IMG/VR virus record: IMGVR_UViG_3300029650_000167
Strand: one strand, 5' to 3'
Origin: a virus
Taxonomy: Duplodnaviria > Heunggongvirae > Uroviricota > Caudoviricetes
Length of the DNA stretch: 38,587 nt
Shown here piece by piece: positions 4,588 to 33,622 of the stretch. The notes under the pieces are model-generated. The model was not told the origin of the DNA. It worked only from the letters and a program-made list of their open reading frames with translations, and did not search any database. A program made the position numbers and the translations under genes. How positions within the stretch are numbered: the first letter of the stretch is position 1; each line of letters starts with the position of its first letter.

Positions 4588-4602
4588 TTACCTTTCAGGT
4601 AA
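4588..4602. promoter_or_regulatory. operator-like palindrome TTACC-TTTCA-GGTAA
   Basis: Perfect 15-bp inverted repeat in the divergent region between tailspike and the LexA-box gene; on minus strand flanked by TTGCAA and TATCTA at -35/-10 spacing. Confidence 0.6.
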
Positions 4603-4641
4603 TTTGCAAAACGTGCTGGATAGCAAACAAATTATTTGCTA

Positions 4642-4657
4642 CTGTATAAATATACAG
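4642..4657 (+). promoter_or_regulatory. LexA box (SOS box) CTGT-N8-ACAG
   Basis: TACTGTATAAATATACAGTT at 4640-4659 matches the enterobacterial LexA consensus TACTGTATATATATACAGTA at 18 of 20 positions; overlaps an extended -10-like TGtATAAAT; 22 nt upstream of SD GGAG. Confidence 0.75.
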
Positions 4658-4678
4658 TTATTGCATGGAGAAGATAAG

Positions 4679-4936
4679 ATGCAGCAGTATCACTATCCAC
4701 TGGAAGACGGATTTACCGAAAGGATTCACACGCCGGGAGGCGTCAGGTCACTGGTGGAGGGATCGCATTTGATGAAATTACTCCGGGATCTCGATAAGGA
4801 TGGATTTAATGTCGATGGCCCACTTGCCGAACTGACTGCACTGATTAACTACGTCACCAGCTCACAGATGTCTATGCAGGATCTGCAAACACATCTCGAC
4901 TATTGTGCCGAACAATTACGAAAGCAAACCAGATAA
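4679..4936 (+). CDS. small LexA-controlled protein, antirepressor-like domain (paralog of Bro-N protein C-terminus)
   Basis: 85 aa; SD GGAG 8 nt upstream; residues HTPGGVRSLVEGSHLMKLL...DGFNVDGPLAELT...QTH align with the C-terminus of ORF 5252-5962. Confidence 0.5.
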   Translation: MQQYHYPLEDGFTERIHTPGGVRSLVEGSHLMKLLRDLDKDGFNVDGPLAELTALINYVTSSQMSMQDLQTHLDYCAEQLRKQTR

Positions 4937-4967
4937 GGTTTGCAATTACCAAGTGGAGTGCTTATAT

Positions 4968-4982
4968 TTACCTTTGCGGTAA
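4968..4982. promoter_or_regulatory. operator-like palindrome TTACC-TTTGC-GGTAA
   Basis: Perfect match to the dispersed 15-bp motif, between the small LexA-box gene and the Bro-N gene. Confidence 0.5.
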
Positions 4983-5062
4983 ATTTACATCGCACTCCTC
5001 TTGTGCCATAGTAATCAGGCACTGGCAAAATCCAGTGCCGGGATTGGCGTCCCGAGTTACTA

Positions 5063-5085
5063 AGTGGCGCATACCACGCCAGACG
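5063..5085 (+). terminator. rho-independent terminator-like hairpin
   Basis: Stem ACCACG/CGTGGT with 5-nt loop followed by seven T. Confidence 0.45.
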
Positions 5086-5251
5086 TGGTTTTTTTATGCG
5101 TTAAGCACAGCTATATCCGAATTATGGTGGGCTGGGCAGGGGTCCGAAAGGACGCCGGTACCACTTAGGCCGGTACGCCAACCTTGTCCAGTTCACCACC
5201 AGTAATTGGCGTTGCGGTGGTGATTAAAATCACTAAGTGGAGATAACCACC

Positions 5252-5962
5252 ATGGCTAATGCTCAAACTGCCATCTTCAAATTTGAATCTGTTAACCCTA
5301 TCCGTTCCATCATTATCGATGGCCAACCATGGTTTGTAGCCCAAGACGTTTGTAGTGCGCTGCGCATCCAAAACGTCACCCAAGCACTTGAAAAACTGGA
5401 TGATGATGAAAGGTCTATGTTCAACATAGGGCATGAACATCGTGCAATTTTTGACAGCCGAGTAAAAGAGATCAACATCATCTCCGAGTCAGGCCTCTAC
5501 ACACTGATCCTCCGCTGCCGCGACGCAGTGACACCAGGCACTATCCCCTACCGCTTTCGTAAATGGGTTACAGGTGAGGTTCTTCCTCAGATCCGCCGCA
5601 CCGGAAGTTACATTAAAAACTCGCTCCCGCAGGAAGAACGCATAAAGATGGTTGCCGACCAGGTAGCCAACGCCACGGCGTCAGCAGTAATGCAGGCGAT
5701 GAAGATAGAGAACAAAACCTACAGTGCCCCACTGAAGCCCGGCTACCGTAGCCTGATTCATTCGCCGTCTGGTGTTCTCGGCCTGACGGAGAACTCACTG
5801 CTGATGAATCTGCTGAACCAGTTACAGGAAGACGGGCACGACGTATCGGGCGCGGCGGCGGAGCTGACCACCATGTTCTGCTACATCGTCGGTGTGAGCA
5901 AATGCCTGCGTGATATCCAGACCCACGCGGAGTACATCAACGACAAGGCTGGGTTCTTCTGA
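5252..5962 (+). CDS. Bro-N domain protein, putative antirepressor
   Basis: 236 aa from ATG 5252 (SD GGAG 9 nt upstream; track shows GTG at 5237); N-terminal FKFE...IDGQPWFVAQDVCSAL...ESGLYTLILRC resembles Bro-N/KilA-N; C-terminal about 70 aa paralogous to ORF 4679-4936. Confidence 0.6.
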   Translation: MANAQTAIFKFESVNPIRSIIIDGQPWFVAQDVCSALRIQNVTQALEKLDDDERSMFNIGHEHRAIFDSRVKEINIISESGLYTLILRCRDAVTPGTIPYRFRKWVTGEVLPQIRRTGSYIKNSLPQEERIKMVADQVANATASAVMQAMKIENKTYSAPLKPGYRSLIHSPSGVLGLTENSLLMNLLNQLQEDGHDVSGAAAELTTMFCYIVGVSKCLRDIQTHAEYINDKAGFF

Positions 5963-5999
5963 CGGGCGGCGGCACAGGGATGTGCCTTTAAAATAATCA

Positions 6000-6029
6000 T
6001 TGGCGATGTGATGTAGATTCGCGTAATAT
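6000..6029 (+). promoter_or_regulatory. sigma70-like promoter (TTGGCG - 18 bp - TAATAT)
   Basis: -35 and -10 hexamers at canonical spacing immediately followed by the operator palindrome at 6029. Confidence 0.4.
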
Positions 6030-6043
6030 TACCTTAAAGGTAA
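6029..6043. promoter_or_regulatory. operator-like palindrome TTACC-TTAAA-GGTAA
   Basis: Perfect motif directly after the -10 and directly before SD AGGAGG of ORF 6056. Confidence 0.55.
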
Positions 6044-6055
6044 AGGAGGCGCGAT

Positions 6056-6223
6056 ATGACAGCGTTGAAAAATCGTACTCAGCACAATGAACAAGCCAAG
6101 CAATGCTGGGATGTCATTGGAAAAGTTATGCTTGGCCGCGCAAGCAAAGAGCGCGACAAGGATATGGTTTACCAGACAGGAACATCTTTCAGCGACTTCA
6201 AGGCGGCATTTCGCTCCAAATAG
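6056..6223 (+). CDS. small hypothetical protein (55 aa)
   Basis: Strong SD AGGAGG 6 nt before ATG; below the ORF-track size cutoff; basic, no TM segment. Confidence 0.4.
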   Translation: MTALKNRTQHNEQAKQCWDVIGKVMLGRASKERDKDMVYQTGTSFSDFKAAFRSK

Positions 6224-6243
6224 AAGCACATCAGGAGTTTTCC

Positions 6244-6684
6244 TTGAAGTTTAACATTAGAATATCTAATAGTTTTCTACATGGGGAAAGCAACACCCCT
6301 TTCGCTGTAGACGGACCTTTCCTTACTGATGATGAAATAAAAATCATACAAAGTTTTTTAGAGGATGTTGCCAATGGAAGGGCGCTTGTTGGAAAAAACA
6401 AGCCCTCATGGGTTGATGATAACCATGATAAAATTCCCGGCTCAGACAATTATGAGCAAGAGAATTATTGGCATTATCATTGTGGGCCAACATGGTATCC
6501 AAACACATTTAAGAATTATACCATTAACTTAAATTTCAACCCTAGCGGAAGGCATTCTAATGAATGCATTCATTATGCAAAAAATGATAATGAAATTGTC
6601 ATTGTTGGATTTTCAAGAGAACACATACCTTTCCTTTCATCAGATGGAAACAACAATCCGCTTTTTAATGATGAAGAAGAATAG
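6244..6684 (+). CDS. hypothetical protein, AT-rich moron (start uncertain, possibly TTG)
   Basis: Open frame from 6103 to 6684; no internal ATG after the upstream small ORF ends, TTG at 6244 is preceded by GGAG; about 33 percent GC versus about 52 percent for the phage; followed by a strong terminator. Confidence 0.4.
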   Translation: MKFNIRISNSFLHGESNTPFAVDGPFLTDDEIKIIQSFLEDVANGRALVGKNKPSWVDDNHDKIPGSDNYEQENYWHYHCGPTWYPNTFKNYTINLNFNPSGRHSNECIHYAKNDNEIVIVGFSREHIPFLSSDGNNNPLFNDEEE

Positions 6685-6704
6685 CCCGCGCTGCGGGCTT
6701 TTTT
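6683..6704 (+). terminator. rho-independent terminator
   Basis: AGCCCGC-GCT-GCGGGCT hairpin followed by TTTTTT. Confidence 0.7.
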
Positions 6705-6776
6705 GTGGACGAAACAAAAGTCAGTGCTACACTCATTGACGCCACATTGAGGTGGCTTATAGATGGAAATTTCACA

Positions 6777-6938
6777 ATGAAAAAAGCATTTGCTGCACTG
6801 TTCGTTTTGTTGTCTCTGGTAGCTTCAACTCAGGCCTTTGCCGGTCGTTGTCAGCACGACAGCGACACTGCCGCTGACGGCTCCCGCTGCGGTGGGCGTT
6901 CTGCGGATTCCCGCCCGGGCGGCGGTGGCATTCGTTAA
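6777..6938 (+). CDS. small secreted peptide (signal peptide plus about 31-aa Gly/Arg/Asp-rich mature region with two Cys)
   Basis: MKKAFAALFVLLSLVASTQAFA looks like a Sec signal peptide ending at an AxA site; internal ATG of the track ORF 6705-6938. Confidence 0.4.
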   Translation: MKKAFAALFVLLSLVASTQAFAGRCQHDSDTAADGSRCGGRSADSRPGGGGIR

Positions 6939-6960
6939 AAACAAGGCCGCGAAAGCGGCC
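6934..6960 (-). terminator. rho-independent terminator for the minus-strand membrane-protein gene
   Basis: GGCCGC-GAAA-GCGGCC hairpin; on the minus strand it is followed by TTGTTTTT. Confidence 0.5.
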
Positions 6961-6961
6961 T

Positions 6962-6973
6962 GTGACATGTCAC
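6962..6973. other. perfect 12-bp palindrome GTGACATGTCAC (copy 1 of 3)
   Basis: Identical 12-mer also at 24567 and 26832; overlaps the TGA stop of the minus-strand ORF 6970-7266. Confidence 0.5.
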
Positions 6974-7266
6974 GTCCCTTTTCTGAATGATAGCCATTCG
7001 AAAAATGATGACATTCCACCGCAGACAATAGCAAAGATGATCCCACCAAAGAAGAGAAGGCCAGCCTGCCACCACTCCCACCGCCATACATCCACAGCGC
7101 CAACCATACCAACAATCGCTCCAACAAATGGAATATAGCTCACGATGAAAGCAATGGGGGCTGCAATTATCCAGTGCAATCCCCACCATGATTCAAGCCC
7201 AGCCATAATTGCTGCCAACTGAAAAAGACCAACGACGATATAAACAATGAATCCTATAGCTTGCAT
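6970..7266 (-). CDS. small integral membrane protein
   Basis: 98 aa with three hydrophobic segments and several Trp; function unknown. Confidence 0.45.
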   Translation of the reverse strand: MQAIGFIVYIVVGLFQLAAIMAGLESWWGLHWIIAAPIAFIVSYIPFVGAIVGMVGAVDVWRWEWWQAGLLFFGGIIFAIVCGGMSSFFEWLSFRKGT

Positions 7267-7278
7267 GTAGTCACCTAT

Positions 7279-7458
7279 TTACCCAGTAAAAATAAGAGGC
7301 CTCCCCTCAATAAGGCTTGCAACAAGAACTACTCCCTGCACAACAAAGATGAACCAGCAAATAGCTTGAGTCTGAGGGTTAAGAAAATATTTGTAGCGGT
7401 CAATAAATAACAATCCACCAGAAATTATCACACTCAAAATAATTAAAAACACAACACT
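7279..7458 (-). CDS. possible small membrane protein (GTG/TTG start)
   Basis: 59-codon hydrophobic ORF in the same frame as, and immediately after, the stop of the 824-aa gene; no clear RBS. Confidence 0.2.
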   Translation of the reverse strand, partial: SVVFLIILSVIISGGLLFIDRYKYFLNPQTQAICWFIFVVQGVVLVASLIEGRPLIFTG

Positions 7459-7461
7459 TCC

Positions 7462-9936: not shown

Positions 9937-9941
9937 TTAAT

Positions 9942-19547: not shown

Positions 19548-20540
19548 TTACACCACGCGGGCTTCTGTTTCCAGAAGCGCATCAGTTTCACGGATTGGTA
19601 CACCACGGAATGACGTCCACCACTCGCCTTCAGTCTCTTTTACGCTAATCGCCAGAGATGTTTTCTCCAGAGACTGCAAATCAAGAGCCTGGCCTACAGT
19701 GCGGTTCATGTAGAACACCGGGCGACCCATGCCACGGTTTGGAATGCGATGCAGTGCTTTAACCATCAACTTCGCAATATTTGCGGCAGAGGAAGGTTCT
19801 GAAAGATTGCTGACATCGATGTTTGCAATGCGAACAACATAACGCCAGTCACGCAGAGCAAGTCCGTTGTCCCATTTGTAATGGGTACGGTAGCCTTCGT
19901 ACTTGCCGCCATTAGCATCTTCCAGTGTCACCTGGCCTTTATCTTCCATCTGAATGCCAGCCTTCTGCCCTTTCGGGAAGATGCCATGCACGGTGTTTTC
20001 GCCCCACACCACTAACCAGATTGAGGTGTTATCTGTACCCGTGCCACCAGCATCAATGATGTTCTGAGCATTACCTGCAGACAGGCTGGAATAGCGGGAG
20101 GACAGTCCCATAAACTGCTGAGGGTTAACGCTGGAATCACCATAAAACAGCGTCTGCGCCATCTGCTGATTCATCGCTTCAATAAATGCGCGGTCTTCAG
20201 ACAGGCGGAATTCGGCGGTATTGCCGTTCAGATCAGCCAGTGACTTATCGACTTCAGCATAGGTTTCCAGCATGCCAACGGAATCGGTTACCTGCACTGT
20301 GGTTGATTTGCTTGGCTGTACGCCATAGTTCAGCAAACGCCAGGTAGCTGAAGGTAAACCAGAACGAATGGTGGTTCGGTGTCCGGTAGGAAGGTTCCCT
20401 TCGACAAAAGGCATATCCTGAAGGATCGGGTTAGTTTGACCGAGAAGCTCGATAATCTTATCGACTTTCCCGTTTGGATCGACGCGCTTACCCCAGTCAG
20501 CCAGCGTTAGCGCAGTTAAGCCTTTAACAGCCATTGTCAT
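19548..20540 (-). CDS. major capsid protein
   Basis: 330 aa, directly after the scaffold gene and before decoration-like genes; size and position typical of a podovirus major capsid protein. Confidence 0.7.
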   Translation of the reverse strand: MTMAVKGLTALTLADWGKRVDPNGKVDKIIELLGQTNPILQDMPFVEGNLPTGHRTTIRSGLPSATWRLLNYGVQPSKSTTVQVTDSVGMLETYAEVDKSLADLNGNTAEFRLSEDRAFIEAMNQQMAQTLFYGDSSVNPQQFMGLSSRYSSLSAGNAQNIIDAGGTGTDNTSIWLVVWGENTVHGIFPKGQKAGIQMEDKGQVTLEDANGGKYEGYRTHYKWDNGLALRDWRYVVRIANIDVSNLSEPSSAANIAKLMVKALHRIPNRGMGRPVFYMNRTVGQALDLQSLEKTSLAISVKETEGEWWTSFRGVPIRETDALLETEARVV

Positions 20541-23440: not shown

Positions 23441-23508
23441 ATCAATGACTCCGTACGCAATTAAATTATTACCAATTTAACCATATATGATTTATTTATC
23501 GTAGATAG

Positions 23509-23545
23509 TTGACATTTAACGCGCGAATTATTACCTTTCAGGTAA
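23509..23545 (+). promoter_or_regulatory. promoter (-35 TTGACA) with overlapping operator palindrome TTACC-TTTCA-GGTAA
   Basis: Consensus TTGACA at 23509-23514, 16 bp later the perfect operator motif (23531-23545) occupies the -10/+1 region; points toward the tRNA. Confidence 0.5.
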
Positions 23546-23867: not shown

Positions 23868-23944
23868 GTGGCATTAGCTCAGTTGGACAGAGCAACCGCC
23901 TTCTAAGCGGTTGGTCGCAGGTTCGAATCCTGCATGCCACGCCA
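23868..23944 (+). tRNA. tRNA-Arg (anticodon UCU, reads AGA)
   Basis: Hand-folded cloverleaf: acceptor GTGGCAT/ATGCCAC, D-arm GCTC/GAGC, anticodon stem ACCGC/GCGGT with loop CTTCTAA, T-arm GCAGG-TTCGAAT-CCTGC, discriminator G and encoded CCA. Confidence 0.85.
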
Positions 23945-23987
23945 GAATCACGCCTAAGGACCGTGATACCAGAAGTTCCAGGTGCTT

Positions 23988-24029
23988 GGCGGTGATAGTT
24001 TCCCTTGAAGGACTATCACCGCCCTTTTT
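23988..24029 (+). terminator. rho-independent terminator after tRNA
   Basis: 12-bp stem GGCGGTGATAGT/ACTATCACCGCC followed by CTTTTT. Confidence 0.75.
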
Positions 24030-24107
24030 ACAGCAGGACGCCATTGCGATGACTTCATGCTGTAAACCCGTACAGCCACGGAAGGCATAACTCATTGCTT
24101 CCAGTTC

Positions 24108-24131
24108 GCCCGGTTCGCCGGGCATTTTTTT
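24108..24131 (+). terminator. second rho-independent terminator/attenuator
   Basis: GCCCGG-TTCG-CCGGGC hairpin followed by seven T, ending 11 nt before the SD of ORF 24143. Confidence 0.65.
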
Positions 24132-24142
24132 AAGGTGAGATC

Positions 24143-24562: not shown

Positions 24563-24566
24563 CACC

Positions 24567-24578
24567 GTGACATGTCAC
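24567..24578. other. perfect 12-bp palindrome GTGACATGTCAC (copy 2 of 3)
   Basis: 5 nt after the stop of ORF 24143-24562 and before its terminator. Confidence 0.5.
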
Positions 24579-24582
24579 AAAC

Positions 24583-24609: not shown

Positions 24610-24652
24610 ATCCTCATCAGAGGATATCAACGACATTATCCCCACCAGCGGA

Positions 24653-26128
24653 TTAAGCATAGGGATCGTAATCTGTGATGGCCTTGCCTTGCTGGTTCTG
24701 CTGCCCGGGAATTCGCAGACGCTTCGACACAGGGAAAGCAAACGTCAGCAGTAGCGCATCGCCTTTACCCGGCGAACGCCCAAGTCGTTCTTTGATATCT
24801 TCCTTCGGTTCGATAACGATTTTACCGTCCACGCGAACTTTGTACTCTGCCGCCGACAGATCGTCCGCTGTTTCCTGGTCATCCAGCATCCCGCCCAACC
24901 TCAGCCATGTCTTGCATGAGTTGAACATCTCCCCGCGCTTGTTGAGCATCTGAGGGTCAGTTGACGCACCACCGAACGGAACAAGTTGCCATGTGCGCCC
25001 CCAGCCGTCACCGATTGACTTCAGACCGGTTCCGTAACCGAAGTCGATGAACACCGCGTCAGCCTGATACTGGTCTTCAAAGTCAGCGATACGCTTCGCC
25101 ATAATCAGATCGTCAGTGGTCTTGTTGCCAGTCCATAGCACCTTACTATGCAACCCCTGCCGCAGGTATATCACCGCGTCATCAACGCCTGAATATGCCG
25201 GGTCAACACCGATTATCACCGGAGCATGAGCCACCTGCGCAGCGGTTACCACCCGTTTCATTGCCTCATCAGTAAGACCGGTAGGGATAAACTGCAATTC
25301 AGATGCATCAGGGAATATGCCGCGCACACGGATTTTAACGAAGTCGCTGTCTTCCCCGTAGTCATCAACCCATTTCTGCAACTGCTGTTTGTTAGTACCT
25401 TCCACCGTCCGGCTGTCAATCTGCGCAGTTTTCCAGCGGTGTTTGTATTTGCGGAAACATTCGCGAAAACGCCCGGTATTACGTGTAGGGTTTCCGAACG
25501 CCACCCAGATAATCTCAGTGTCTTCGTCCGTAAGCGCACCCTCAGCAACTTCCCACACCAGATCCGCAATGTTCGACGCTTCATCGAATACCACGATGAT
25601 GCGTTTGCGCTCGTTGTGTAGTCCGGCGAATGCCTCAGTGTTGTGCTCAGACCAGGGGATTGCGTCAGCTCGCCACCGCTTGTCGTGCCCAGGATCATTG
25701 CTGTACATCGCGGTAGCGGTACAGGTAAACCAGTCTTTCGTGATGGCAAGGTTCGACCACTTGATAATTTCCGGCCAGGTCTTCGTTCGTAGCTGGTTGT
25801 CGGTGTTGGCGGTCACCACAACCTTACAATCCTCGCAAGTGGACATGCCCCAGTTGATCAGCATTGAGATGAATGCGGATTTACCAATACCATGACCAGA
25901 AGCACGTGCCAGCATAAGCGGCTGATAGCGCGTCTCTGGATTCTGCAGGTGATCACGTATCTCTCGGAACGCATCAGCCTGCCACTTACGTGGACCGGTG
26001 GCATGTGCTAATTCAGTCCCCTCTTCCCCCCACGGGAACGCATAGAGGGCATAGCCAAGCGGATCGTGAGTGAACCCTGCAATATCCTCGATCAACTGCT
26101 CTTCAGGAGATAACGCTGTATCTGTCAC
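24653..26128 (-). CDS. terminase large subunit
   Basis: 491 aa with Walker A-like GHGIGKS near the N-terminus and acidic nuclease-like C-terminal region; GTG start overlapping the small-subunit stop. Confidence 0.85.
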   Translation of the reverse strand: MTDTALSPEEQLIEDIAGFTHDPLGYALYAFPWGEEGTELAHATGPRKWQADAFREIRDHLQNPETRYQPLMLARASGHGIGKSAFISMLINWGMSTCEDCKVVVTANTDNQLRTKTWPEIIKWSNLAITKDWFTCTATAMYSNDPGHDKRWRADAIPWSEHNTEAFAGLHNERKRIIVVFDEASNIADLVWEVAEGALTDEDTEIIWVAFGNPTRNTGRFRECFRKYKHRWKTAQIDSRTVEGTNKQQLQKWVDDYGEDSDFVKIRVRGIFPDASELQFIPTGLTDEAMKRVVTAAQVAHAPVIIGVDPAYSGVDDAVIYLRQGLHSKVLWTGNKTTDDLIMAKRIADFEDQYQADAVFIDFGYGTGLKSIGDGWGRTWQLVPFGGASTDPQMLNKRGEMFNSCKTWLRLGGMLDDQETADDLSAAEYKVRVDGKIVIEPKEDIKERLGRSPGKGDALLLTFAFPVSKRLRIPGQQNQQGKAITDYDPYA

Positions 26129-26721
26129 TGATTACCATCCTGACGTTCTTTGAGTCGCTTCCTGGCTGCTGCTATGCGATCAGCAATTGTCACATTCACA
26201 TTAACATCCAGACGTTCTTTGAACGCGTTGACATCAACATGCTTACCAATCAGTTCTAGGTTCTTCACCTTGTCAGGCCATTTAATTTTTTTGAGGATTG
26301 TCTCTATCGAATCCTCGTTCATGTTCATGATGGTCGATGACAGATCAAAGCCACTAAGCGTAGTGCGCCAGATTTTCGGCCACTCACGGATTGGTTTAAG
26401 GCTCCCATCGTCGTTGAGGATGTCGATCACGTCCATCTGGTCGATCTCCACCAGGCGCATGAGAACGTAATCAGCACTGACGCGCATTCGTTTGTTGCGC
26501 TCCTCCATCAACTCGGCAATCCGTTTTTGAATGCGTTCATCGCGCATCATGACGCTGGCTTTAACTGCCGCTGTATTTGGGGAGAATCCTGCGTTAATCG
26601 CAGCCTGAGTCTGGTTTTCAGGCGTTTTGATGTATGACTGGCAATAAGCCTCCTGCATTGCTGTGAGCGGCTTAAATTGCGTTGATTTGCGTTTATAGGT
26701 TTTAGGTTCAGCAGGCATCAT
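26125..26721 (-). CDS. terminase small subunit
   Basis: About 198 aa from ATG 26721 (SD GGTGG); basic N-terminal region; the track ORF start at 26799 would translate the operator and terminator region. Confidence 0.6.
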   Translation of the reverse strand: MMPAEPKTYKRKSTQFKPLTAMQEAYCQSYIKTPENQTQAAINAGFSPNTAAVKASVMMRDERIQKRIAELMEERNKRMRVSADYVLMRLVEIDQMDVIDILNDDGSLKPIREWPKIWRTTLSGFDLSSTIMNMNEDSIETILKKIKWPDKVKNLELIGKHVDVNAFKERLDVNVNVTIADRIAAARKRLKERQDGNQ

Positions 26722-26738
26722 AACCACCGTGGTAATTG

Positions 26739-26753
26739 TTACCGTTGTGGTAA
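26739..26753. promoter_or_regulatory. operator-like palindrome TTACC-GTTGT-GGTAA upstream of terS
   Basis: Perfect motif 18 bp upstream of the terS start, flanked by additional GGTAA/TACC half-sites. Confidence 0.5.
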
Positions 26754-26760
26754 TAATACC

Positions 26761-26790
26761 ATGCAAAATAAAGCCGCCATAGTTGGCGGC
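26761..26790 (-). terminator. rho-independent terminator between early-left operon and late operon
   Basis: On the minus strand GCCGCC-AACTAT-GGCGGC followed by TTTATTTTG. Confidence 0.55.
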
Positions 26791-26831
26791 AGTATTCAAA
26801 CCCCATCAAATTCATCATGCATAATCTACTC

Positions 26832-26843
26832 GTGACATGTCAC
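26832..26843. other. perfect 12-bp palindrome GTGACATGTCAC (copy 3 of 3)
   Basis: Overlaps the TGA stop of ORF 26840-27181, about 90 bp upstream of the late operon. Confidence 0.5.
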
Positions 26844-27452: not shown

Positions 27453-27732
27453 TACCTTCCTCCTTTGGCTTGTGAATTTGTATCGTCATGCCGCTTTGAG
27501 TGGTGACTACAACGACAGAACCAGGCTGAAGACTGTTAAGATTGAATGCTTCGTAAAACGAAGCCAAGGCCAGCGCTTTTTTATTCTTTCGGTTCCACCA
27601 ACGCCATCCATTGCTACAGGCTACACTGACAATCCACTGTCCACTCCTGTAAGCCATATAAAACCAGATGAGCAAAACCTGAATGAATGCTATCCAGTCA
27701 ATAATCGTATATTTCGCGAAGGAGACCATCAA
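27445..27732 (-). CDS. hypothetical membrane-anchored protein
   Basis: 95 aa with one N-terminal hydrophobic segment. Confidence 0.4.
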   Translation of the reverse strand: MMVSFAKYTIIDWIAFIQVLLIWFYMAYRSGQWIVSVACSNGWRWWNRKNKKALALASFYEAFNLNSLQPGSVVVVTTQSGMTIQIHKPKEEGNG

Positions 27733-28969: not shown

Positions 28970-28970
28970 A

Positions 28971-30049: not shown

Positions 30050-30110
30050 CTTTACCCTCGCTTATCCACATAACTTATTGATAACATTGATAACTAAAAA
30101 GATCGTCGAT

Positions 30111-30455
30111 TCAGAACTCTTCGATGTTCCAGCCACCACCTGCTTTCTTTGGTTTAACCGTTACCCCGATGATTCGGAACGGATACTGATCTGCGGCGAC
30201 TTTGGTTTTCACTCTGGCGTCGTCGGTCCAGAAACCTTTCACTTCGTGCAGTTCCATCTCGCCGGTGGCGAGCATCACAGCAAAATCGGGCGTATAGAAC
30301 GTGTTGTCAGCTAACCGCAGCTTGATACCCTCGAATCGATACCAGGCGATTTCCCCTGCACGTTTACGCTGCTCAAGGTGCTGGCAATACGCAGATTCTG
30401 TTTTGTTCATCTGACCTGTTTTGAGTCGACCAAGAGCCTGTATCTGTTTTCTCAT
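30111..30455 (-). CDS. DUF1064-like protein (putative PD-(D/E)xK recombination nuclease)
   Basis: 114 aa with pattern YTPDF...GE.E.HEVKG...K.K....YP; first gene of the nin-like operon. Confidence 0.45.
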   Translation of the reverse strand: MRKQIQALGRLKTGQMNKTESAYCQHLEQRKRAGEIAWYRFEGIKLRLADNTFYTPDFAVMLATGEMELHEVKGFWTDDARVKTKVAADQYPFRIIGVTVKPKKAGGGWNIEEF

Positions 30456-30458
30456 GAT

Positions 30459-30473
30459 TTACCTCTGAGGTAA
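30459..30473. promoter_or_regulatory. operator-like palindrome TTACC-TCTGA-GGTAA
   Basis: Perfect motif overlapping the 5' UTR and SD of gene 30111-30455. Confidence 0.5.
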
Positions 30474-30520
30474 TTAAAAACCACATAAGACACGAAATCA
30501 ATAGATTTTAGAATATTTTA

Positions 30521-30535
30521 TTACCTAACAGGTAA
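30521..30535. promoter_or_regulatory. operator-like palindrome TTACC-TAACA-GGTAA inside a promoter spacer
   Basis: On the minus strand TCGACA - operator - TAAAAT, so the palindrome fills the 16-bp spacer between -35 and -10. Confidence 0.6.
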
Positions 30536-30572
30536 TTGTCGAGGCGTAAAAAAATGCGCTATCGCGCTGGTA

Positions 30573-31373
30573 TTACTTGATAAATCCTGCCGCCTTTCCC
30601 CGCCTGTATTCCTCCATCAGCCACTGCGCCGGTGTTATTCCCCCAAGGGTGGCGGCGTTAGGCATGCACCCGAAACTTCGCCCTGGTGGATGGTAAACGT
30701 CTCTCCCTGTGTCCGGAGGCGTACTCATGGGCTCTGGCTTTGCCTGTATGCTGATCACCGGATCGGGTATCTGCTGTCCGGAAGCCACCTTTTTCGCCCA
30801 ATCATCGAGCAGCCTGCGTGCGTGTTTCTCAACCTCAATCTCGCTAAGCTGGCGCTGATACATTGCACGGCGGGTATCACATACGACCCAGTACATAACC
30901 GGATGTCGCCACGGGAATCTTTCGGGACCACCAGGATATAAACTTTTTTCCTTGCTGTACCGGTGAAACTCCGCCATCACATCGTCAATGGTGACGCCAA
31001 GAACCATCTTGCTGTCTTTGCACCACTTGATAAATTGCCCTGGAGACGGCCAGAACGGAGATTCACTGGCGCGGGCGTGGCGCATACCAGCAGAAACCTG
31101 TTCACGGGTTCGGATCCCCCCTTCGGCAAACGCAGCAATCCACTGCTGTTTTGCAGCAACTTCCTGCTCTGGCGTCTTCAGGTTGGTTACCACTGCCGCC
31201 GGAAACAGTTGTTTCAGCTGTTTAAAAAGGGCATCAACAAGCCTCTCTGCTGACATGTTCACCACATTGTCATTGTTGACGTACTGATGCTCATAACCTG
31301 ACATGCGAGAAAGGGCTTCTCCGTCACGGTTTTGTATCGCGGTAAAAACGTTGTTCACAAGAAATCCTCCCAT
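30573..31373 (-). CDS. replication protein P-like (helicase loader)
   Basis: 266 aa; QWIAAFAEGGIRTREQVSAGMRHARASESPFWPSPGQFIKWCKD aligns with lambda P QWVLAFRENGITTMEQVNAGMRVARRQNRPFLPSPGQFVAWCRE (recalled). Confidence 0.75.
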   Translation of the reverse strand: MGGFLVNNVFTAIQNRDGEALSRMSGYEHQYVNNDNVVNMSAERLVDALFKQLKQLFPAAVVTNLKTPEQEVAAKQQWIAAFAEGGIRTREQVSAGMRHARASESPFWPSPGQFIKWCKDSKMVLGVTIDDVMAEFHRYSKEKSLYPGGPERFPWRHPVMYWVVCDTRRAMYQRQLSEIEVEKHARRLLDDWAKKVASGQQIPDPVISIQAKPEPMSTPPDTGRDVYHPPGRSFGCMPNAATLGGITPAQWLMEEYRRGKAAGFIK

Positions 31374-32152
31374 GCTTCAGGGCTGTTCCAGTGCGGAACG
31401 TTGTTATCAGGTAATGTTGATTGCTTCTGTCTGCTAATCTGCAGCCGCCTTGCCAGCTTCTGCTCCCACTGTGCCTGATGGTATGCCTTACCCTCAGCCA
31501 TCCAGTAAATTCTGAACTCTGCAAGTTCCTGTGCCGTTGGCAGACTGTCCAGGTAGATCCCCTGCAATGAGCTTTTCCGAAGAAAGTCATCTGATGGCTG
31601 CCATTGTTCATGCATGACAAATTTGCCTAATTGCCCTGGCCCACCAGGAGGAACAAAGTTATTCATCACGGCGTTGTTTGCTCCGGGGTCATGAGGCACA
31701 GAATCCCCGCTTTTTGTCCTGCTCTCCCTCTCTTGGTTAAATGACTGGTTATATGACTGGTTCTGGATCCCGTTTTTGGGATCATTCAACATCCCGTTTT
31801 TGGGATCATTCAACATCCCGTTTTTGGGTATATTCCCGTTTTCGGGTTCATTGCCCCCCTCCCGGTTGCCTTTAATGTTCCCGTTTTTGGTTATATTAAG
31901 AGAGAAAACCCGCACTCTTTTTGTCGCTCCCTTTCTCTCTCCGGTATCTGAAATAAGCCCCATTTTCATGAGCGATATAAGCCCGGCCTGCACGGTTTTT
32001 TTATTCAGGCAAGTGTCTTTAACGAGGCGTTCTATGCTGGGGTAGCAGAGGTTATATTCATCGGCTCTGTCAGCCATCGAGAGCAGTATGAGCTTTAATG
32101 ATGAGCTACCTGGATCTGTCTCCCAGGCCCAATCTGTTGCATGTCTGCTCAT
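31355..32152 (-). CDS. replication initiator (O-like) with N-terminal winged-HTH and internal origin repeats
   Basis: 265 aa; N-terminal DWAWE...LKLILLSMADRADE...CYPSIERL HTH; central repeats PKNGMLNDPKNG encoded by iterons; SD GGAG. Confidence 0.7.
   Translation of the reverse strand: MSRHATDWAWETDPGSSSLKLILLSMADRADEYNLCYPSIERLVKDTCLNKKTVQAGLISLMKMGLISDTGERKGATKRVRVFSLNITKNGNIKGNREGGNEPENGNIPKNGMLNDPKNGMLNDPKNGIQNQSYNQSFNQERESRTKSGDSVPHDPGANNAVMNNFVPPGGPGQLGKFVMHEQWQPSDDFLRKSSLQGIYLDSLPTAQELAEFRIYWMAEGKAYHQAQWEQKLARRLQISRQKQSTLPDNNVPHWNSPEAWEDFL
31768..31890. repeat. origin iterons, five copies of TCCCGTTTTTGGG-like repeat
   Basis: Copies at 31768, 31792, 31816 (24-bp period), 31834 and 31879; each is an imperfect inverted repeat; located inside the O-like gene. 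Confidence 0.65.
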
Positions 32153-32167
32153 GATTAATCTCCGCTA

Positions 32168-32368
32168 TCAGCTTGAATGTTGTGGGGAGGAATTAATCAT
32201 GATCTGCTTAATCTCTGCCCTGATACGACGGTTTGATTCCATGGTGCACTCAACACAGTGTCCGTTGTAAACCCAGCGTTCACTGTCATGTCCGTGCTTA
32301 CATGTTTTTCCGGTGTAGTAGCGTTTAAGTCCGCGCTTTGCGGCATCAATACGTGTAATGATTTCCAT
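32168..32368 (-). CDS. small zinc-finger protein
   Basis: About 66 aa from ATG 32368; CKHGH...HCVEC metal-binding pattern; occupies the cII-equivalent position. Confidence 0.35.
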   Translation of the reverse strand: MEIITRIDAAKRGLKRYYTGKTCKHGHDSERWVYNGHCVECTMESNRRIRAEIKQIMINSSPQHSS

Positions 32369-32448
32369 GGTAAGCCCTGTTATTAGTATTAGGATTACGG
32401 TTATTTTGTGCTGACACAAAAAAAAGATCAACCATATTTGGTTTTTTA

Positions 32449-32463
32449 TTACCTTTGAGGTAC
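32449..32463. promoter_or_regulatory. operator-like palindrome (imperfect) TTACC-TTTGA-GGTAC
   Basis: 9 of 10 match; between the cro-side terminator and the zinc-finger/O/P genes. Confidence 0.4.
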
Positions 32464-32470
32464 GAATAGA

Positions 32471-32497
32471 TATGAAAAGACCGCCGGATGGCGGTCT
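32471..32497 (-). terminator. rho-independent terminator downstream of cro-like gene (tR1-like)
   Basis: On the minus strand AGACCGCC-ATCC-GGCGGTCT followed by TTTTCAT. Confidence 0.55.
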
Positions 32498-32518
32498 ACA
32501 GAGGGTTGTGGCTGGATA

Positions 32519-32749
32519 TCATGAGTAGAAGAAGTATGCCAGTTCTGCTTTTGAGCGCAGCCATTGTCTTGATTTACAGGCTTTAAAAAGCCCATCCATC
32601 AATACCTTACCTGGCATTTTGCGCTTACCTGTTAAGTGAGTCTGGATATAGTGACTCGTCGTTCCGGCTTCCTGTGCGAAGGCTTCACGCTCATCCGGAG
32701 TAAGTGCAAGCCAGTGCTTTTTGAAATCGAAATGTCCGTTATCGCTCAT
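32519..32749 (-). CDS. Cro-like HTH regulator
   Basis: 76 aa, divergent from the repressor gene; HTH-like stretch EAFAQEAGTTSHYIQTHLTG. Confidence 0.5.
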   Translation of the reverse strand: MSDNGHFDFKKHWLALTPDEREAFAQEAGTTSHYIQTHLTGKRKMPGKVLMDGLFKACKSRQWLRSKAELAYFFYS

Positions 32750-32785
32750 AGCTATTGCCTGATATTTATTTCAGATAATAAATAT

Positions 32786-32800
32786 TCACCTATAAGGTAA
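32786..32800. promoter_or_regulatory. operator OR-like site A (TCACC-TATAA-GGTAA)
   Basis: 9 of 10 match; in the divergent cro/repressor region, inside the spacer of a minus-strand TTGATT...GAATAT promoter. Confidence 0.5.
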
Positions 32801-32816
32801 CAAAAATCAAGGATAG

Positions 32817-32831
32817 TTACCCACGAGGTGC
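32817..32831. promoter_or_regulatory. operator OR-like site B (TTACC-CACGA-GGTGC, weak)
   Basis: 8 of 10 match, 17 bp from site A and abutting site C. Confidence 0.3.
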
Positions 32832-32833
32832 AT

Positions 32834-32848
32834 TTACCTGTTGGGTAA
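32834..32848. promoter_or_regulatory. operator OR-like site C (TTACC-TGTTG-GGTAA)
   Basis: Perfect motif about 55 bp upstream of the repressor start. Confidence 0.55.
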
Positions 32849-32903
32849 TATTGCTTTAAATTGAATCATCTTCTGATTCAGATATGAGGCGATTTTCCAG
32901 AAA

Positions 32904-33488
32904 ATGAAAAGTATCCAGGACGTCCGCAGGCAAAATCTCAACGACTTGATCGACCGTGAATTCAATGGTGTTCAGACGCGGATGGCTGAAAAACTTGGAA
33001 CTCAGGCAAATCTGGTAAACCGCTGGGCTCTTGGCAAGAAGGTTATCGGCGACCAGGTTGCACGAAAAATTGAAGCTGCCGCCAATAAACCCCGTAACTG
33101 GCTTGATATCGATCGCTCGCTTTCTCAGGAAGGTTTTCAGCCTGTCGGCCCAAGCGACATTGGCCAGCTGGCGGCTCACAACCTGGAACGCTGGATGAGC
33201 GAAAGCCGCGACCTTTCAACACAGGGAAAACTTCACCGCGCATCCGGCGTAGCCCAGGTGACAATCAGCCGCCTGTTAAACAATGAGGTCAGCGTTTCCA
33301 TTTCCACCCTGGAGAATGTTGCATCCGCATTCGGGCGTCACGGCTATGAATTACTGATTCACCCGCACGACCCTGCGACCATCAACTATGATCGCTCGCG
33401 CTACGCATTGTTACCCGAAACCGAGAAAGCAAAGATCGAAAGTTACATTGAATTTGTCATCAACCAGAACGAAAAAAACAAACAATAA
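32904..33488 (+). CDS. prophage repressor with tandem XRE-type HTH domains, no peptidase domain
   Basis: 194 aa; two HTH-like segments (TRMAEKLGTQANLVNRWALGKK and ASGVAQVTISRLLNNEVSVSISTLENVA); no Ser/Lys S24 autocleavage motif; divergent from cro-like gene. Confidence 0.7.
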   Translation: MKSIQDVRRQNLNDLIDREFNGVQTRMAEKLGTQANLVNRWALGKKVIGDQVARKIEAAANKPRNWLDIDRSLSQEGFQPVGPSDIGQLAAHNLERWMSESRDLSTQGKLHRASGVAQVTISRLLNNEVSVSISTLENVASAFGRHGYELLIHPHDPATINYDRSRYALLPETEKAKIESYIEFVINQNEKNKQ

Positions 33489-33509
33489 AACCATATTTTT
33501 CAGTAAGTA

Positions 33510-33533
33510 AGCCGCCTTATGGCGGCTTTTTTA
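33510..33533 (+). terminator. rho-independent terminator after repressor gene
   Basis: AGCCGCC-TTAT-GGCGGCT hairpin followed by TTTTTT. Confidence 0.8.
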
Positions 33534-33545
33534 TTGCCTATTCGA

Positions 33546-33560
33546 TTACCTAACAGGTAA
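33546..33560. promoter_or_regulatory. operator OL-like site (TTACC-TAACA-GGTAA)
   Basis: Perfect motif 20 bp upstream of a TTGACA -35 hexamer. Confidence 0.55.
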
Positions 33561-33579
33561 TTTTTTTAACTCATATCTA

Positions 33580-33607
33580 TTGACATCAAACCATATACGC
33601 ATAATTA
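33580..33607 (+). promoter_or_regulatory. PL-like promoter (TTGACA - 16 bp - TAATTA)
   Basis: Consensus -35 and AT-rich -10 at canonical spacing, immediately followed by an operator palindrome. Confidence 0.5.
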
Positions 33608-33622
33608 TTACCTCAACGGTAA
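33608..33622. promoter_or_regulatory. operator OL-like site (TTACC-TCAAC-GGTAA)
   Basis: Perfect motif at the predicted transcription start of the plus-strand early operon. Confidence 0.55.

What the first reader, a model, noticed from the sequence alone, without database searches (positions are those of the whole stretch)
4588..33622. One 15-bp palindrome, TTACC-N5-GGTAA, sits at 13 promoter-proximal sites across every module of the prophage
Ten perfect copies (4588, 4968, 6029, 23531, 26739, 30459, 30521, 32834, 33546, 33608) and three near-copies (32449, 32786, 32817) were found by eye. A 10-position motif is expected about 0.04 times by chance in 38.6 kb, and every copy is intergenic. Placement is consistent: the palindrome either fills the spacer between a -35 and -10 (30521, 4588 on the minus strand, 32786) or follows the -10 directly (6029, 33608, 23531). 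Three copies cluster between the divergent cro-like and repressor genes and two follow the repressor terminator, as lambda OR and OL would. The same site also precedes terS, the tailspike/antirepressor region, the moron promoter, the tRNA promoter and the nin-like and replication operons. That implies one regulator, most simply the tandem-HTH repressor (32904-33488), silences early, late, accessory and tRNA promoters directly rather than through a cascade, which is unusual for a lambdoid layout.
Basis: seen in the sequence. Interest (0 to 1): 0.8.

Follow-up and report, generated by a model that had tools for sequence, protein, structure and literature searches.

The report
Repressor operator sites across an epsilon15-like prophage
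The repeated 15-bp palindrome is real and is most likely the binding site of the prophage's lysogeny repressor at nearly every transcription unit, but the same sites are already annotated in the type phage epsilon15.

Summary
TTACC-N5-GGTAA occurs 10 times perfectly at the stated coordinates, against 0.01 expected. All 14 lie in the 6.7% of the window that is non-coding.

The window is not lambdoid. It is a Uetakevirus (epsilon15/phiV10-like) prophage. The same palindrome is the top-ranked palindrome in six genus members and sits at the same positions in each. The epsilon15 GenBank record already marks seven of these sites as "protein_bind: repressor".

The 194-aa repressor is homologous to SPC32H Rep (PDB 5D50), a tetrameric, antirepressor-controlled repressor. 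Its recognition helix NLVNRW is invariant across Reps that are only 43% identical. Unrelated phages with a homologous HTH carry TTACC/GGTAA palindromes beside their own repressor genes. Among 60-80 prophages with identical Rep, half-sites vary in 4/100 columns and the N5 spacer in 26/50.

- The real antirepressor is the 85-aa gene at 4679-4936, behind a perfect LexA box.
- Site 4968 heads an isrK-C4-BroN::Ant operon.
- terS starts at 26718.
- The central base is always A or T.
- Paired operators lie exactly 62 bp apart.

Direct repression of late promoters is plausible but unproven. Novelty is low.

The parts
4588..4602 (.). Operator, perfect (TTACCTTTCAGGTAA). It lies in the divergent region between the tail-fibre gene (start 4483, minus strand) and ant (4679, plus strand).
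   Evidence: An orthologous site is present in phiV10, epsilon15 (annotated as repressor-binding, 19895-19911), SPC32H, Tyrion and Klebsiella phage BUCT711.
4642..4657 (.). Perfect LexA box (CTGTATAAATATACAG), 22 bp upstream of the ant start codon.
   Evidence: That LexA controls ant in SPC32H is recalled from Kim & Ryu 2013, which could not be read here.
4679..4936 (+). ant: an 85-aa antirepressor, 88% identical to SPC32H Ant.
   Evidence: phrog_450.
4968..4982 (.). Operator, perfect. It starts at the last base of the -10 of the predicted promoter TTGCAA-17-TATATT (4940-4968).
   Evidence: Orthologous sites occur in phiV10 (20497), Tyrion (21393) and the Klebsiella phage (17377).
5019..5095 (+). 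isrK-family sRNA, downstream of operator 4968.
   Evidence: Rfam RF01394, 67.2 bits against a gathering score of 50.
5120..5203 (+). C4 antisense RNA, as in the P1 immI region, immediately upstream of the Bro-N gene.
   Evidence: Rfam RF01695, 66 bits against a gathering score of 45.
5237..5962 (+). Protein with a Bro-N domain and a C-terminal Ant-like domain; a candidate second antirepressor.
   Evidence: Pfam Bro-N. The phrog_450 match covers residues 158-239. The region is 42% identical to the small Ant, E 9e-16.
6029..6043 (.). Operator, perfect. It abuts TAATAT and is followed by AAGGAGG-N6-ATG of a two-gene accessory operon (6056-6223 and 6244-6684).
23531..23545 (.). Operator, perfect. 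It lies between the head-operon gene (gp3-like, start 23440, minus strand) and the oppositely oriented tRNA-Arg/p03 unit. A TTGACA conserved across the genus lies 16 bp upstream on the plus strand.
   Evidence: The orthologous epsilon15 site at 2931-2947 is annotated as repressor-binding.
23868..23944 (+). tRNA-Arg (UCU), downstream of operator 23531 on the plus strand.
26739..26753 (.). Operator, perfect. On the minus strand it directly follows an extended -10 (TGgTATTAT) that comes after terminator 26790-26773.
   Evidence: The orthologous epsilon15 site at 12-27 is annotated as repressor-binding.
26721..26735 (.). It ends 3 bp before the conserved terS start codon.
26125..26718 (-). terS, with its start corrected to the conserved ATG at 26718.
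   Evidence: Alignment A3. epsilon15 terS is annotated at 47-643.
30521..30535 (.). Operator, perfect. It fills the spacer of TCGACA-16-TAAAAT on the minus strand, the nin-like operon promoter.
30459..30473 (.). Operator, perfect, 62 bp from 30521. It overlaps the ribosome-binding site of the DUF1064 gene (ATG 30455, minus strand).
32449..32463 (.). Operator with one mismatch, after the cro terminator (32497-32478, minus strand) and ahead of the replication operon. It is imperfect in the window and in three of the five relatives compared (phiV10, Tyrion, Klebsiella phage); epsilon15 and SPC32H have no match at one mismatch or fewer here.
32786..32800 (.). OR-like operator with one mismatch, in the spacer of TTGTTA-17-TATTAT pointing towards the cro-like gene.
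32817..32831 (.). OR-like middle operator with two mismatches.
   Evidence: The orthologous middle site is perfect in epsilon15 and SPC32H.
32834..32848 (.). OR-like operator, perfect, on the side nearest rep.
32519..32749 (-). Cro-like 76-aa gene; a possible second binder of the same sites.
   Evidence: phrog_35, transcriptional repressor, E 9e-13.
32904..33488 (+). rep: the 194-aa lysogeny repressor, proposed to bind the palindrome.
   Evidence: PDB 5D50 (SPC32H Rep), E 4e-42. It is 100% identical to ZX5 ORF21, the functionally tested repressor. The recognition helix is invariant in alignment A1.
33546..33560 (.). OL-like operator, perfect, after the rep terminator (33509-33528).
33608..33622 (.). 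OL-like operator, perfect, 62 bp from 33546. It starts at the last base of the -10 of TTGACA-17-AATTAT.
   Evidence: The orthologous epsilon15 sites at 32554-32570 and 32616-32632 are annotated as repressor-binding.

Best explanation
The palindrome, refined to aTTACC-nnWnn-GGTAAt, is the operator of the prophage's own lysogeny repressor Rep (32904-33488). Rep is a homologue of SPC32H Rep.

Inferred mechanism. Pairs of N-terminal HTH domains each read one TTACC half-site, with half-site centres 10 bp apart. Because Rep is tetrameric, one tetramer can hold two operators. This would explain operator pairs spaced exactly 62 bp centre to centre at the early-left and nin-like promoters, and the tight cluster between rep and the cro-like gene.

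Nearly every transcription unit starts after an intrinsic terminator, with its own promoter carrying an operator in the spacer, at the start site or over the ribosome-binding site. Operators sit at:
- the early-left operon
- the cro-like gene
- the replication operon
- the nin-like operon
- terS
- the head operon/tRNA region
- the tail-fibre/ant region
- the isrK-C4-BroN::Ant operon
- a two-gene accessory operon

Rep therefore holds the whole prophage silent site by site.

Induction does not go through Rep cleavage, since Rep has no S24 peptidase domain. It goes through the small antirepressor Ant (4679-4936), whose promoter carries a perfect LexA box. Derepression then also releases a second Ant-domain protein from the Rep-controlled promoter at 4968.

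Shown here: the sites, their statistics, their conservation, the homologies, and selection on the half-sites. Shown elsewhere: Rep is the functional repressor (ZX5), and SPC32H Rep is a tetramer that binds palindromic DNA and is released by Ant. Inferred: physical binding of Rep to each site in this prophage, looping, and repression of late promoters.
For: 1. Statistics. There are 10 perfect sites against 0.01 expected, and 13 at one mismatch or fewer against 0.71. All lie in the 6.7% of non-coding DNA.
2. Genus conservation. The same palindrome is the top palindrome in phiV10, epsilon15, SPC32H, Tyrion and Klebsiella phage BUCT711, with 8-11 perfect copies each. It sits at orthologous positions and forms islands of identity in diverged intergenic alignments.
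3. Prior annotation. The epsilon15 GenBank record marks seven of these sites 'protein_bind: repressor, lysogeny'.
4. Repressor identity. Rep matches PDB 5D50 (SPC32H Rep) at E 4e-42. Citing papers describe that protein as a tetramer binding palindromic DNA sites and dissociated by Ant.
5. Co-conservation. The recognition helix NLVNRW is invariant in Reps that share only 43-44% identity, matching the invariant half-site.
6. HTH-family association. Repressors in other phage types with a homologous N-terminal HTH have the same half-sites beside their own genes. PseuP_224 cI has TTACC-N4-GGTAA twice, CharmingMan has it three times, and pOW20-A has ATACC-N5-GGTAT three times. More divergent helices (H-19B cI, phiE125 gp52) have different half-sites.
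7. Population constraint. In 60-80 IMG/VR contigs encoding the identical Rep, half-site columns vary in 4/100, the N5 spacer in 26/50 and flanks in 89/400. Fisher P is 1.5e-11 and 5e-6; the sequences are related, so these values are rough.
8. Conserved spacing. The 62-bp spacing holds in 11 of 12 operator pairs across six genomes, with one pair at 63.
9. Function. The identical protein in phage ZX5, when overexpressed, abolishes free phage and lowers holin and endolysin mRNA by 99.97-99.99%.
10. Induction module. There is a perfect LexA box upstream of an Ant that is 88% identical to SPC32H Ant.
Against: - No binding data exist for this Rep on these sites, and the primary SPC32H and epsilon15 papers could not be read. 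The experimentally used operator sequence is therefore not confirmed here.
- Consensus promoter hits are no more frequent than in shuffles, and only 4 of 14 sites coincide with a scanned promoter. The extended operator consensus (A before TTACC) itself produces a '-10-like' nAnnAT, so the '-10 then operator' geometry may be partly an artefact.
- At 23531 no good sigma-70 promoter is evident on either strand.
- The ZX5 data do not separate direct from indirect repression of late genes.
- The OL and nin regulatory cassettes look paralogous (shared CTATTGA...-10...operator layout). Part of the 62-bp regularity could therefore be shared ancestry.
- The lysis-cassette operator present in relatives is absent in this window.
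Confidence: 0.82

Rival explanations
1. Rep binds all the sites, but the dispersed late and accessory sites are not promoter operators. They act as roadblocks, looping anchors or a repressor reservoir. Late genes would be switched on by a separate, still unidentified activator or antiterminator, so a cascade exists after all.
For: - Weak or absent sigma-70 promoters at 23531 and 4588.
- A strongly conserved 70-bp block downstream of the 23531 site, containing CATATGTGGTT-N5-GGTAATAAT, recurs upstream of the tail-fibre and lysis genes and could be an activator-dependent late promoter.
- A second conserved palindrome, GTGACATGTCAC, sits next to terminators at three operon ends.
- Candidate regulators are encoded: a gp49-like phrog_536 protein, and PerC-like and AlpA-like proteins in phiV10.
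Against: - At terS the operator begins at the last base of a conserved extended -10 and a second operator abuts the start codon. This is classic occlusion geometry.
- At 4968 and 33608 a scanned promoter ends exactly where the operator starts.
Confidence: 0.12
2. The main binder at the dispersed sites is the 76-aa Cro-like protein (32519-32749) or another phage regulator, not Rep. Rep would use only the rep-cro and early-left clusters.
For: - The Cro-like protein belongs to a PHROG annotated as transcriptional repressor.
- In lambda-type switches, Cro and the repressor share operators (established knowledge).
Against: - The half-site tracks the Rep N-terminal HTH family in unrelated phages.
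- The Rep recognition helix is invariant alongside the motif.
- Dispersed and clustered sites are indistinguishable in sequence.
- epsilon15's annotators assigned the sites to the repressor.
- Shared use by a Cro-like protein is compatible with the main explanation; exclusive use is what this rival requires.
Confidence: 0.04
3. The palindrome is read by a host factor. One candidate is the antitoxin MqsA, whose site is AACCT-N3-AGGTT. The prophage would then be tied to host physiology rather than to its own repressor.
For: Seven of the ten perfect sites contain TACCT-N3-AGGTA. This is one base per half-site away from the MqsA palindrome given in the PMC4894380 abstract.
Against: - Position 6 is not conserved across the genus (T in 50%), whereas TTACC/GGTAA is invariant.
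- The motif is kept in phages of Salmonella, Klebsiella and Enterobacter.
- The sites form the classical pattern around the phage's own repressor gene.
Confidence: 0.02

Closest known systems
Putative repressor-binding sites of Salmonella phage epsilon15 (GenBank AY150271.2; Kropinski et al. 2007)
   Same: The core TTACC-N5-GGTAA is the same. The positions are the same: upstream of terS, upstream of gp3, between gp19 (ant) and the tailspike gene, downstream of the repressor gene, and upstream of the nin-like genes. Seven sites are annotated 'protein_bind: repressor'.
   Different: - The window's Rep is only 42% identical overall to epsilon15 Rep.
- The epsilon15 record does not annotate the rep-cro cluster or the second site of each pair.
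- The window adds sites at the isrK-C4-BroN::Ant operon (4968) and at an accessory operon (6029).
- The window lacks the lysis-cassette site and the third early-left site.
Rep-Ant-LexA lysis-lysogeny switch of Salmonella phage SPC32H (Kim & Ryu 2013; Kim et al. 2016; PDB 5D50/5D4Z)
   Same: - Homologous Rep (E 4e-42).
- Ant is 88% identical.
- A LexA box lies upstream of ant.
- The operator palindrome occurs 10 times perfectly in the SPC32H genome.
- Rep is a non-cleavable tetramer inactivated by Ant (details of the primary papers are from memory).
   Different: - E. coli host.
- A second protein with an Ant-like domain fused to Bro-N, preceded by isrK and C4 RNAs, which SPC32H lacks.
- Binding of Rep to the dispersed late sites has, as far as I could find, not been reported.
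Bacteriophage P1 C1 repressor with operators dispersed over the genome, and its immI (c4-icd-ant) operon
   Same: One repressor directly controls many scattered operons. A repressor-controlled promoter drives a C4 antisense RNA plus an antirepressor (C4 hit; P1 facts are from established knowledge).
   Different: P1 operators are asymmetric 17-mers, and C1 is unrelated to the HTH-XRE Rep. P1 late promoters are controlled indirectly through the activator Lpa. Here operators sit at late-gene starts.
Lambda OR/OL operators with CI and Cro
   Same: There are three operators between divergent repressor and cro-like genes and further operators at the leftward early promoter. The sites are palindromic with HTH-type half-sites one helical turn apart.
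   Different: - Rep has no S24 autocleavage domain.
- Operators also occur at late, replication, nin-like and accessory units.
- Each unit is bracketed by a terminator plus its own promoter, rather than being read through by N/Q antitermination.
- The virion is a podovirus of a different genus.
Mycobacteriophage L5/Bxb1 repressor 'stoperators'
   Same: Many copies of one repressor site are spread through the genome, restricted to short intergenic spaces (established knowledge).
   Different: Stoperators are asymmetric and orientation-dependent, and they block elongation. The sites here are symmetric and mostly overlap promoters or ribosome-binding sites.

Membership tests
Uetakevirus (epsilon15-like) Rep operator network | The genome belongs to the epsilon15/phiV10 group. 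| tested here: met
   About 97% nucleotide identity to phiV10, HEMP4 and phiv142-3 over most of the window. Gene order matches phiV10.
Uetakevirus (epsilon15-like) Rep operator network | A Rep homologue with an N-terminal HTH and a conserved recognition helix, and no peptidase domain. | tested here: met
   PDB 5D50 at E 4e-42. NLVNRW is invariant in alignment A1. Pfam finds HTH domains only.
Uetakevirus (epsilon15-like) Rep operator network | The palindrome ATTACC-N5-GGTAAT lies at positions orthologous to those annotated as repressor-binding in epsilon15. | tested here: met
Uetakevirus (epsilon15-like) Rep operator network | A small Ant antirepressor under LexA control. | tested here: met
   Ant is 88% identical to SPC32H Ant. 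A perfect LexA box lies at 4642-4657. Regulation itself was not tested.
Uetakevirus (epsilon15-like) Rep operator network | Physical binding of Rep to the palindrome and repression of the adjacent promoters. | not testable with these tools
   Only indirect support: co-conservation, the HTH-family association and the population constraint, plus ZX5 overexpression data.
Lambda-type CI/Cro immunity region | Three operators between divergent repressor and cro genes. | tested here: met
   32786, 32817 and 32834 lie between 32749 and 32904.
Lambda-type CI/Cro immunity region | A repressor with a RecA-stimulated S24 autocleavage domain. | tested here: not met
   Pfam finds no S24 peptidase domain. 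The C-terminus aligns with the SPC32H Rep tetramerisation domain.
Lambda-type CI/Cro immunity region | Delayed-early and late genes reached by N/Q antitermination rather than by their own repressor-controlled promoters. | tested here: inconclusive
   Terminator-promoter-operator units precede the replication, nin-like and terS genes. No N or Q homologue is annotated in phiV10, but absence was not searched for exhaustively.
P1-type global repressor (C1) with immI | Many operators dispersed over the genome, controlling separate operons. | tested here: met
   Fourteen sites in nine intergenic regions.
P1-type global repressor (C1) with immI | An asymmetric 17-bp operator and a C1-family repressor. 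| tested here: not met
   The operator is a perfect palindrome. Rep is an HTH-XRE protein homologous to SPC32H Rep.
P1-type global repressor (C1) with immI | A C4 antisense RNA plus an antirepressor transcribed from a repressor-controlled promoter. | tested here: met
   C4 (RF01695) lies at 5120-5203, between operator 4968 and the BroN::Ant gene. Regulation was not tested.
Mycobacteriophage stoperators | Asymmetric sites oriented with transcription that act within transcribed regions. | tested here: not met
   The sites are symmetric and lie at promoters or ribosome-binding sites.

The most novel reading that the evidence does not exclude
Uetakeviruses run a single-tier, cascade-free programme. 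Every transcription unit, including terS, the head and tail genes, a tRNA and accessory operons, has its own constitutive promoter shut directly by the Rep tetramer. Rep clamps operator pairs phased exactly 62 bp apart into small loops. Induction is made irreversible because the LexA-controlled Ant releases a second, Rep-repressed protein with an Ant-like domain (isrK-C4-BroN::Ant). No late activator or antiterminator would be needed.
Probability: 0.25. Interest if true: 0.5.

Novelty: already known. Interest (0 to 1): 0.25.

Why it matters
The value here is mainly in annotation. The phiV10-type prophage, whose Rep is identical in at least 80 IMG/VR contigs, can have its operators, its real antirepressor gene, its terS start and its immI-like RNA module annotated correctly.

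If direct repression of late and accessory promoters were shown experimentally, this genus would join P1 and the mycobacteriophages as an example of immunity exerted genome-wide by one repressor, this time through a tetramer with fixed 62-bp operator pairs. That would be a useful system for studying repressor looping and antirepressor-driven induction. It would not overturn current understanding.

Tried and rejected
- Primary papers. I tried to read Kropinski 2007 (PMC2698709 and its DOI), Kim & Ryu 2013 (PMC3807360) and Kim 2016 (PMC4983836). None is held. Statements about them rest on the GenBank features, on citing papers and on memory, and are marked as such.
- Literature search for the motif string found nothing relevant.
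- Covariation test with IMG/VR. The scan returned only contigs with 100% identical Rep. It was useless for covariation, so I reused those contigs for the population-constraint test.
- Greedy longest-ORF gene map. It placed 5 of the 14 sites in spurious or over-long ORFs. I replaced it with a homology-curated map.
- First ungapped population alignment. It was contaminated by misaligned loci. I repeated it with an identity filter.
- Promoter scans. Hits were not enriched over shuffles, so promoter assignments are treated as weak evidence.
- LexA as the binder of the palindrome: rejected, because the only good LexA box is the separate site at 4642-4657.
- MqsA-like host binding: considered and judged unlikely.
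- The Bro-N ORF as 'the' antirepressor: rejected in favour of the small Ant homologue, although Bro-N carries an Ant-like domain.

Full report
**1. Observation**

Dinucleotide-preserving shuffles expect 0.01, and mononucleotide shuffles give 0.04. With one mismatch allowed there are 13 matches against 0.71 expected. It is credible only through its position between two other sites, because two-mismatch hits as a class are near background (24 against 15).

An unbiased count of all 5+gap+5 palindromes puts this one first, with 10 copies. The only other high count is the nested TACCT-N3-AGGTA (7); unrelated palindromes reach 3 at most.

With a gene map curated by homology, 6.7% of the window is non-coding and all 14 sites lie there. 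A naive longest-ORF map wrongly places five of them in ORFs.

The phiV10 RefSeq terS start (TTG) also covers two sites. Alignment with epsilon15, SPC32H and Tyrion shows the conserved start is the ATG at 26718, immediately after the second site.

**2. What the window is**

It is not a lambdoid phage. It is about 97% identical to phiV10, HEMP4, phiv142-3 and PAS61, which are members of the genus Uetakevirus (epsilon15-like temperate podoviruses). Its gene order matches phiV10. The window runs from the spanin gene to the integrase start codon, so it is an almost complete prophage with the att-proximal ends trimmed.

**3. The motif is a genus feature and is already annotated**

TTACC-N5-GGTAA is the top palindrome in phiV10 (8 perfect copies), epsilon15 (11), SPC32H (10), Enterobacter phage Tyrion (9) and Klebsiella phage BUCT711 (9). 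The sites fall into the same positional classes in each genome:
- upstream of terS
- upstream of the head-operon gene gp3
- between ant and the tailspike gene
- downstream of ant, where an extra gene follows
- upstream of the lysis cassette (absent in this window)
- a one-mismatch site upstream of int (beyond the end of this window)
- a pair downstream of rep
- a cluster between rep and the cro-like gene
- a one-mismatch site between the cro terminator and the replication operon in the window, phiV10, Tyrion and the Klebsiella phage (none found in epsilon15 or SPC32H)
- a pair upstream of the nin-like genes

In alignments of these diverged intergenic regions the half-sites are islands of identity.

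The epsilon15 GenBank record AY150271.2 already carries seven 'protein_bind: repressor, lysogeny' features on exactly these sites. This decides the novelty question. The core of the finding is therefore public knowledge for the type phage, although I could not read the accompanying paper.

**4. Which protein binds**

The 194-aa protein at 32904-33488 matches the solved SPC32H repressor Rep (PDB 5D50) at E 4e-42. Citing papers describe that protein as having an N-terminal DNA-binding domain, a middle dimerisation domain and a C-terminal tetramerisation domain. They report that it binds palindromic DNA as a tetramer and is dissociated by the antirepressor Ant. The 'tandem HTH' is therefore one DNA-reading HTH plus an HTH-like dimerisation domain.

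Four independent lines link this protein to the palindrome.
- **Co-conservation.** Reps of the six phages share only 43-78% identity, yet the recognition helix NLVNRW is invariant, as is the half-site.
- **HTH-family association.** Repressors of unrelated phage types whose N-terminal HTH is homologous to Rep's have the same half-sites beside their own genes. Pseudomonas phage PseuP_224 cI has TTACC-N4-GGTAA twice. Escherichia phage CharmingMan has it three times. Psychrobacter phage pOW20-A has ATACC-N5-GGTAT three times. More divergent helices (H-19B cI, phiE125 gp52) go with different half-sites.
- **Population constraint.** Among 60-80 IMG/VR contigs encoding the identical Rep, half-site columns vary in 4 of 100, the N5 spacer in 26 of 50 and flanks in 89 of 400. 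The Fisher P values are rough because the sequences are related.
- **Function.** The identical protein in phage ZX5, when overexpressed, abolishes free phage and lowers holin and endolysin mRNA by 99.97-99.99%.

**5. Refinements of the anatomy**

- **Central base.** It is A or T in 51 of 52 unique perfect sites from the six genomes, and in all ten sites here. Position -1 is usually A. The operator is therefore aTTACC-nnWnn-GGTAAt.
- **Spacing.** Operator pairs are 62 bp apart centre to centre at both the early-left and nin-like promoters in every genome, in 11 of 12 pairs, with one at 63. This is about six helical turns and fits one Rep tetramer holding two operators. That reading is an inference, and the two cassettes look paralogous.
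- **Geometries.**
  - Operator in the promoter spacer: 30521, 32786.
  - Operator starting at the last base of the -10: 33608 and 4968; also 6029 and 26739 by eye.
  - Operator over the ribosome-binding site or start codon: 30459, 26721.
  - Sources for these.
- **Upstream terminators.** Four of the units are preceded by an intrinsic terminator: the early-left operon, the replication operon and terS, and the nin-like operon (by-eye hairpin plus T-run; phiV10 annotation).
- **Cautions.**
  - Scanned promoter hits are not enriched over shuffles.
  - The A before TTACC itself makes a -10-like hexamer.
  - At 23531 the claimed -10 is only 11 bp from the conserved TTGACA.

**6. The induction module**

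In SPC32H the gene named ant is the small ORF divergent from the tailspike gene. Its homologue here is 4679-4936, at 88% identity. A perfect LexA box, CTGTATAAATATACAG, lies at 4642-4657, 22 bp upstream.

Downstream, operator 4968 sits at a predicted promoter. That promoter leads through an isrK-family sRNA (5019-5095) and a C4 antisense RNA (5120-5203) into the Bro-N protein gene. The C-terminal third of that protein is an Ant-like domain. This resembles the repressor-controlled immI operon of P1. It suggests a feed-forward step: once Ant removes Rep, a second Ant-domain protein is made. This is an inference.

**7. Verdict on the interpretation**

'One regulator, the repressor, binds all sites' is well supported indirectly. 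'It silences late, accessory and tRNA promoters directly rather than through a cascade' is plausible, most convincingly at terS, but it is not demonstrated.

Conserved extra motifs near late-gene starts and at operon ends leave room for an additional late regulator. 'Unusual for a lambdoid layout' does not apply, because this is the normal and already annotated layout of epsilon15-like phages.

**8. Comparison and novelty**

The system is the epsilon15/SPC32H Rep-Ant-LexA switch with its dispersed operators. In logic it resembles P1 C1, which has many scattered operators and a C4-ant operon. It differs from P1 in protein family and operator symmetry. It differs from lambda in lacking repressor autocleavage and in giving each unit its own controlled promoter. 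It differs from mycobacteriophage stoperators in symmetry and position.

I rate the finding as already known and of low to moderate interest. It has some residual value in three points I could not find reported: the fixed 62-bp operator pairs, the Rep-controlled second Ant-domain operon, and the untested direct control of late promoters.

Noticed in passing
window 4642-4657: A perfect LexA box (CTGTATAAATATACAG) lies 22 bp upstream of the true antirepressor gene ant (4679-4936), which is 88% identical to SPC32H Ant.
   Followed up: yes
window 5019-5203: Rfam finds an isrK-family sRNA (5019-5095) and a C4 antisense RNA (5120-5203) between operator 4968 and the Bro-N gene. This is a P1 immI-like module under a putative Rep-controlled promoter.
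   Followed up: partly
window 5237-5962: The C-terminal residues 158-239 of the Bro-N protein are an Ant-like domain (phrog_450; 42% identical to the small Ant). The prophage therefore encodes two proteins with an Ant-type domain.
   Followed up: partly
window 6962-6973, 24567-24578, 26832-26843: A second exact palindrome, GTGACATGTCAC, occurs three times. Each copy follows a stop codon and sits next to an intrinsic terminator at an operon end. Its core TGACATGTCA (usually the full 12-mer) recurs at two or three of these orthologous operon ends in each of the other five Uetakevirus genomes checked. Its function is unknown; it could be a site for a termination or late regulator.
   Followed up: partly
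window 23469-23489, 4538-4558, 1861-1874, 32430-32443: The motif AACCA(C/T)ATAT(G) recurs near promoters. The composite TTACC-N5-AACCAYATATG lies upstream of both the head operon and the tail-fibre gene. At the head operon it sits within an almost invariant 70-bp block across the genus, and its centre there is 62 bp from operator 23531. It could be a hybrid operator or an element of a late promoter.
   Followed up: partly
window 26719-26799; L001 (phiV10) 41-120: The phiV10 RefSeq terS annotation (TTG start, 224 aa) runs over two operators and a terminator. The conserved start shared with epsilon15, SPC32H and Tyrion gives a protein of about 197 aa starting at window 26718.
   Followed up: yes
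L001 26870-26884; L002 26882-26896; L003 26960-26974; L005 28568-28582: A conserved one-mismatch operator (TTACCYTAAAGGTAT) lies about 45 bp upstream of int in relatives. The window ends at the int start codon, so this site cannot be seen here. It suggests that Rep also modulates int.
   Followed up: no
window 23874-24125 (minus strand): The ORF homologous to phiV10 p04 overlaps tRNA-Arg (23868-23944) on the opposite strand and also terminator-like hairpins. It is probably not a real gene.
   Followed up: no
window 6737-6938: A small secreted-protein gene (6777-6938; signal peptide MKKAFAALFVLLSLVASTQAFA) has its own TTGACG promoter and no operator. It is the only unit here that looks like a true moron expressed in the lysogen, unlike the operator-bearing 6029 operon.
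   Followed up: no
window 31734-31828: Perfect tandem repeats (24 bp x 2.6 and 12 bp x 2.4) lie inside the replication-initiator gene (31355-32152). They are probably origin iterons.
   Followed up: no
L006 11765-11822; L091 (upstream of 1474); L089 (upstream of 1483): Repressors of unrelated phages with a Rep-like N-terminal HTH (PseuP_224 cI, CharmingMan, pOW20-A) have TTACC-N4-GGTAA or ATACC-N5-GGTAT operators next to their own genes. This defines an HTH subfamily that reads a TACC half-site at variable spacing.
   Followed up: partly
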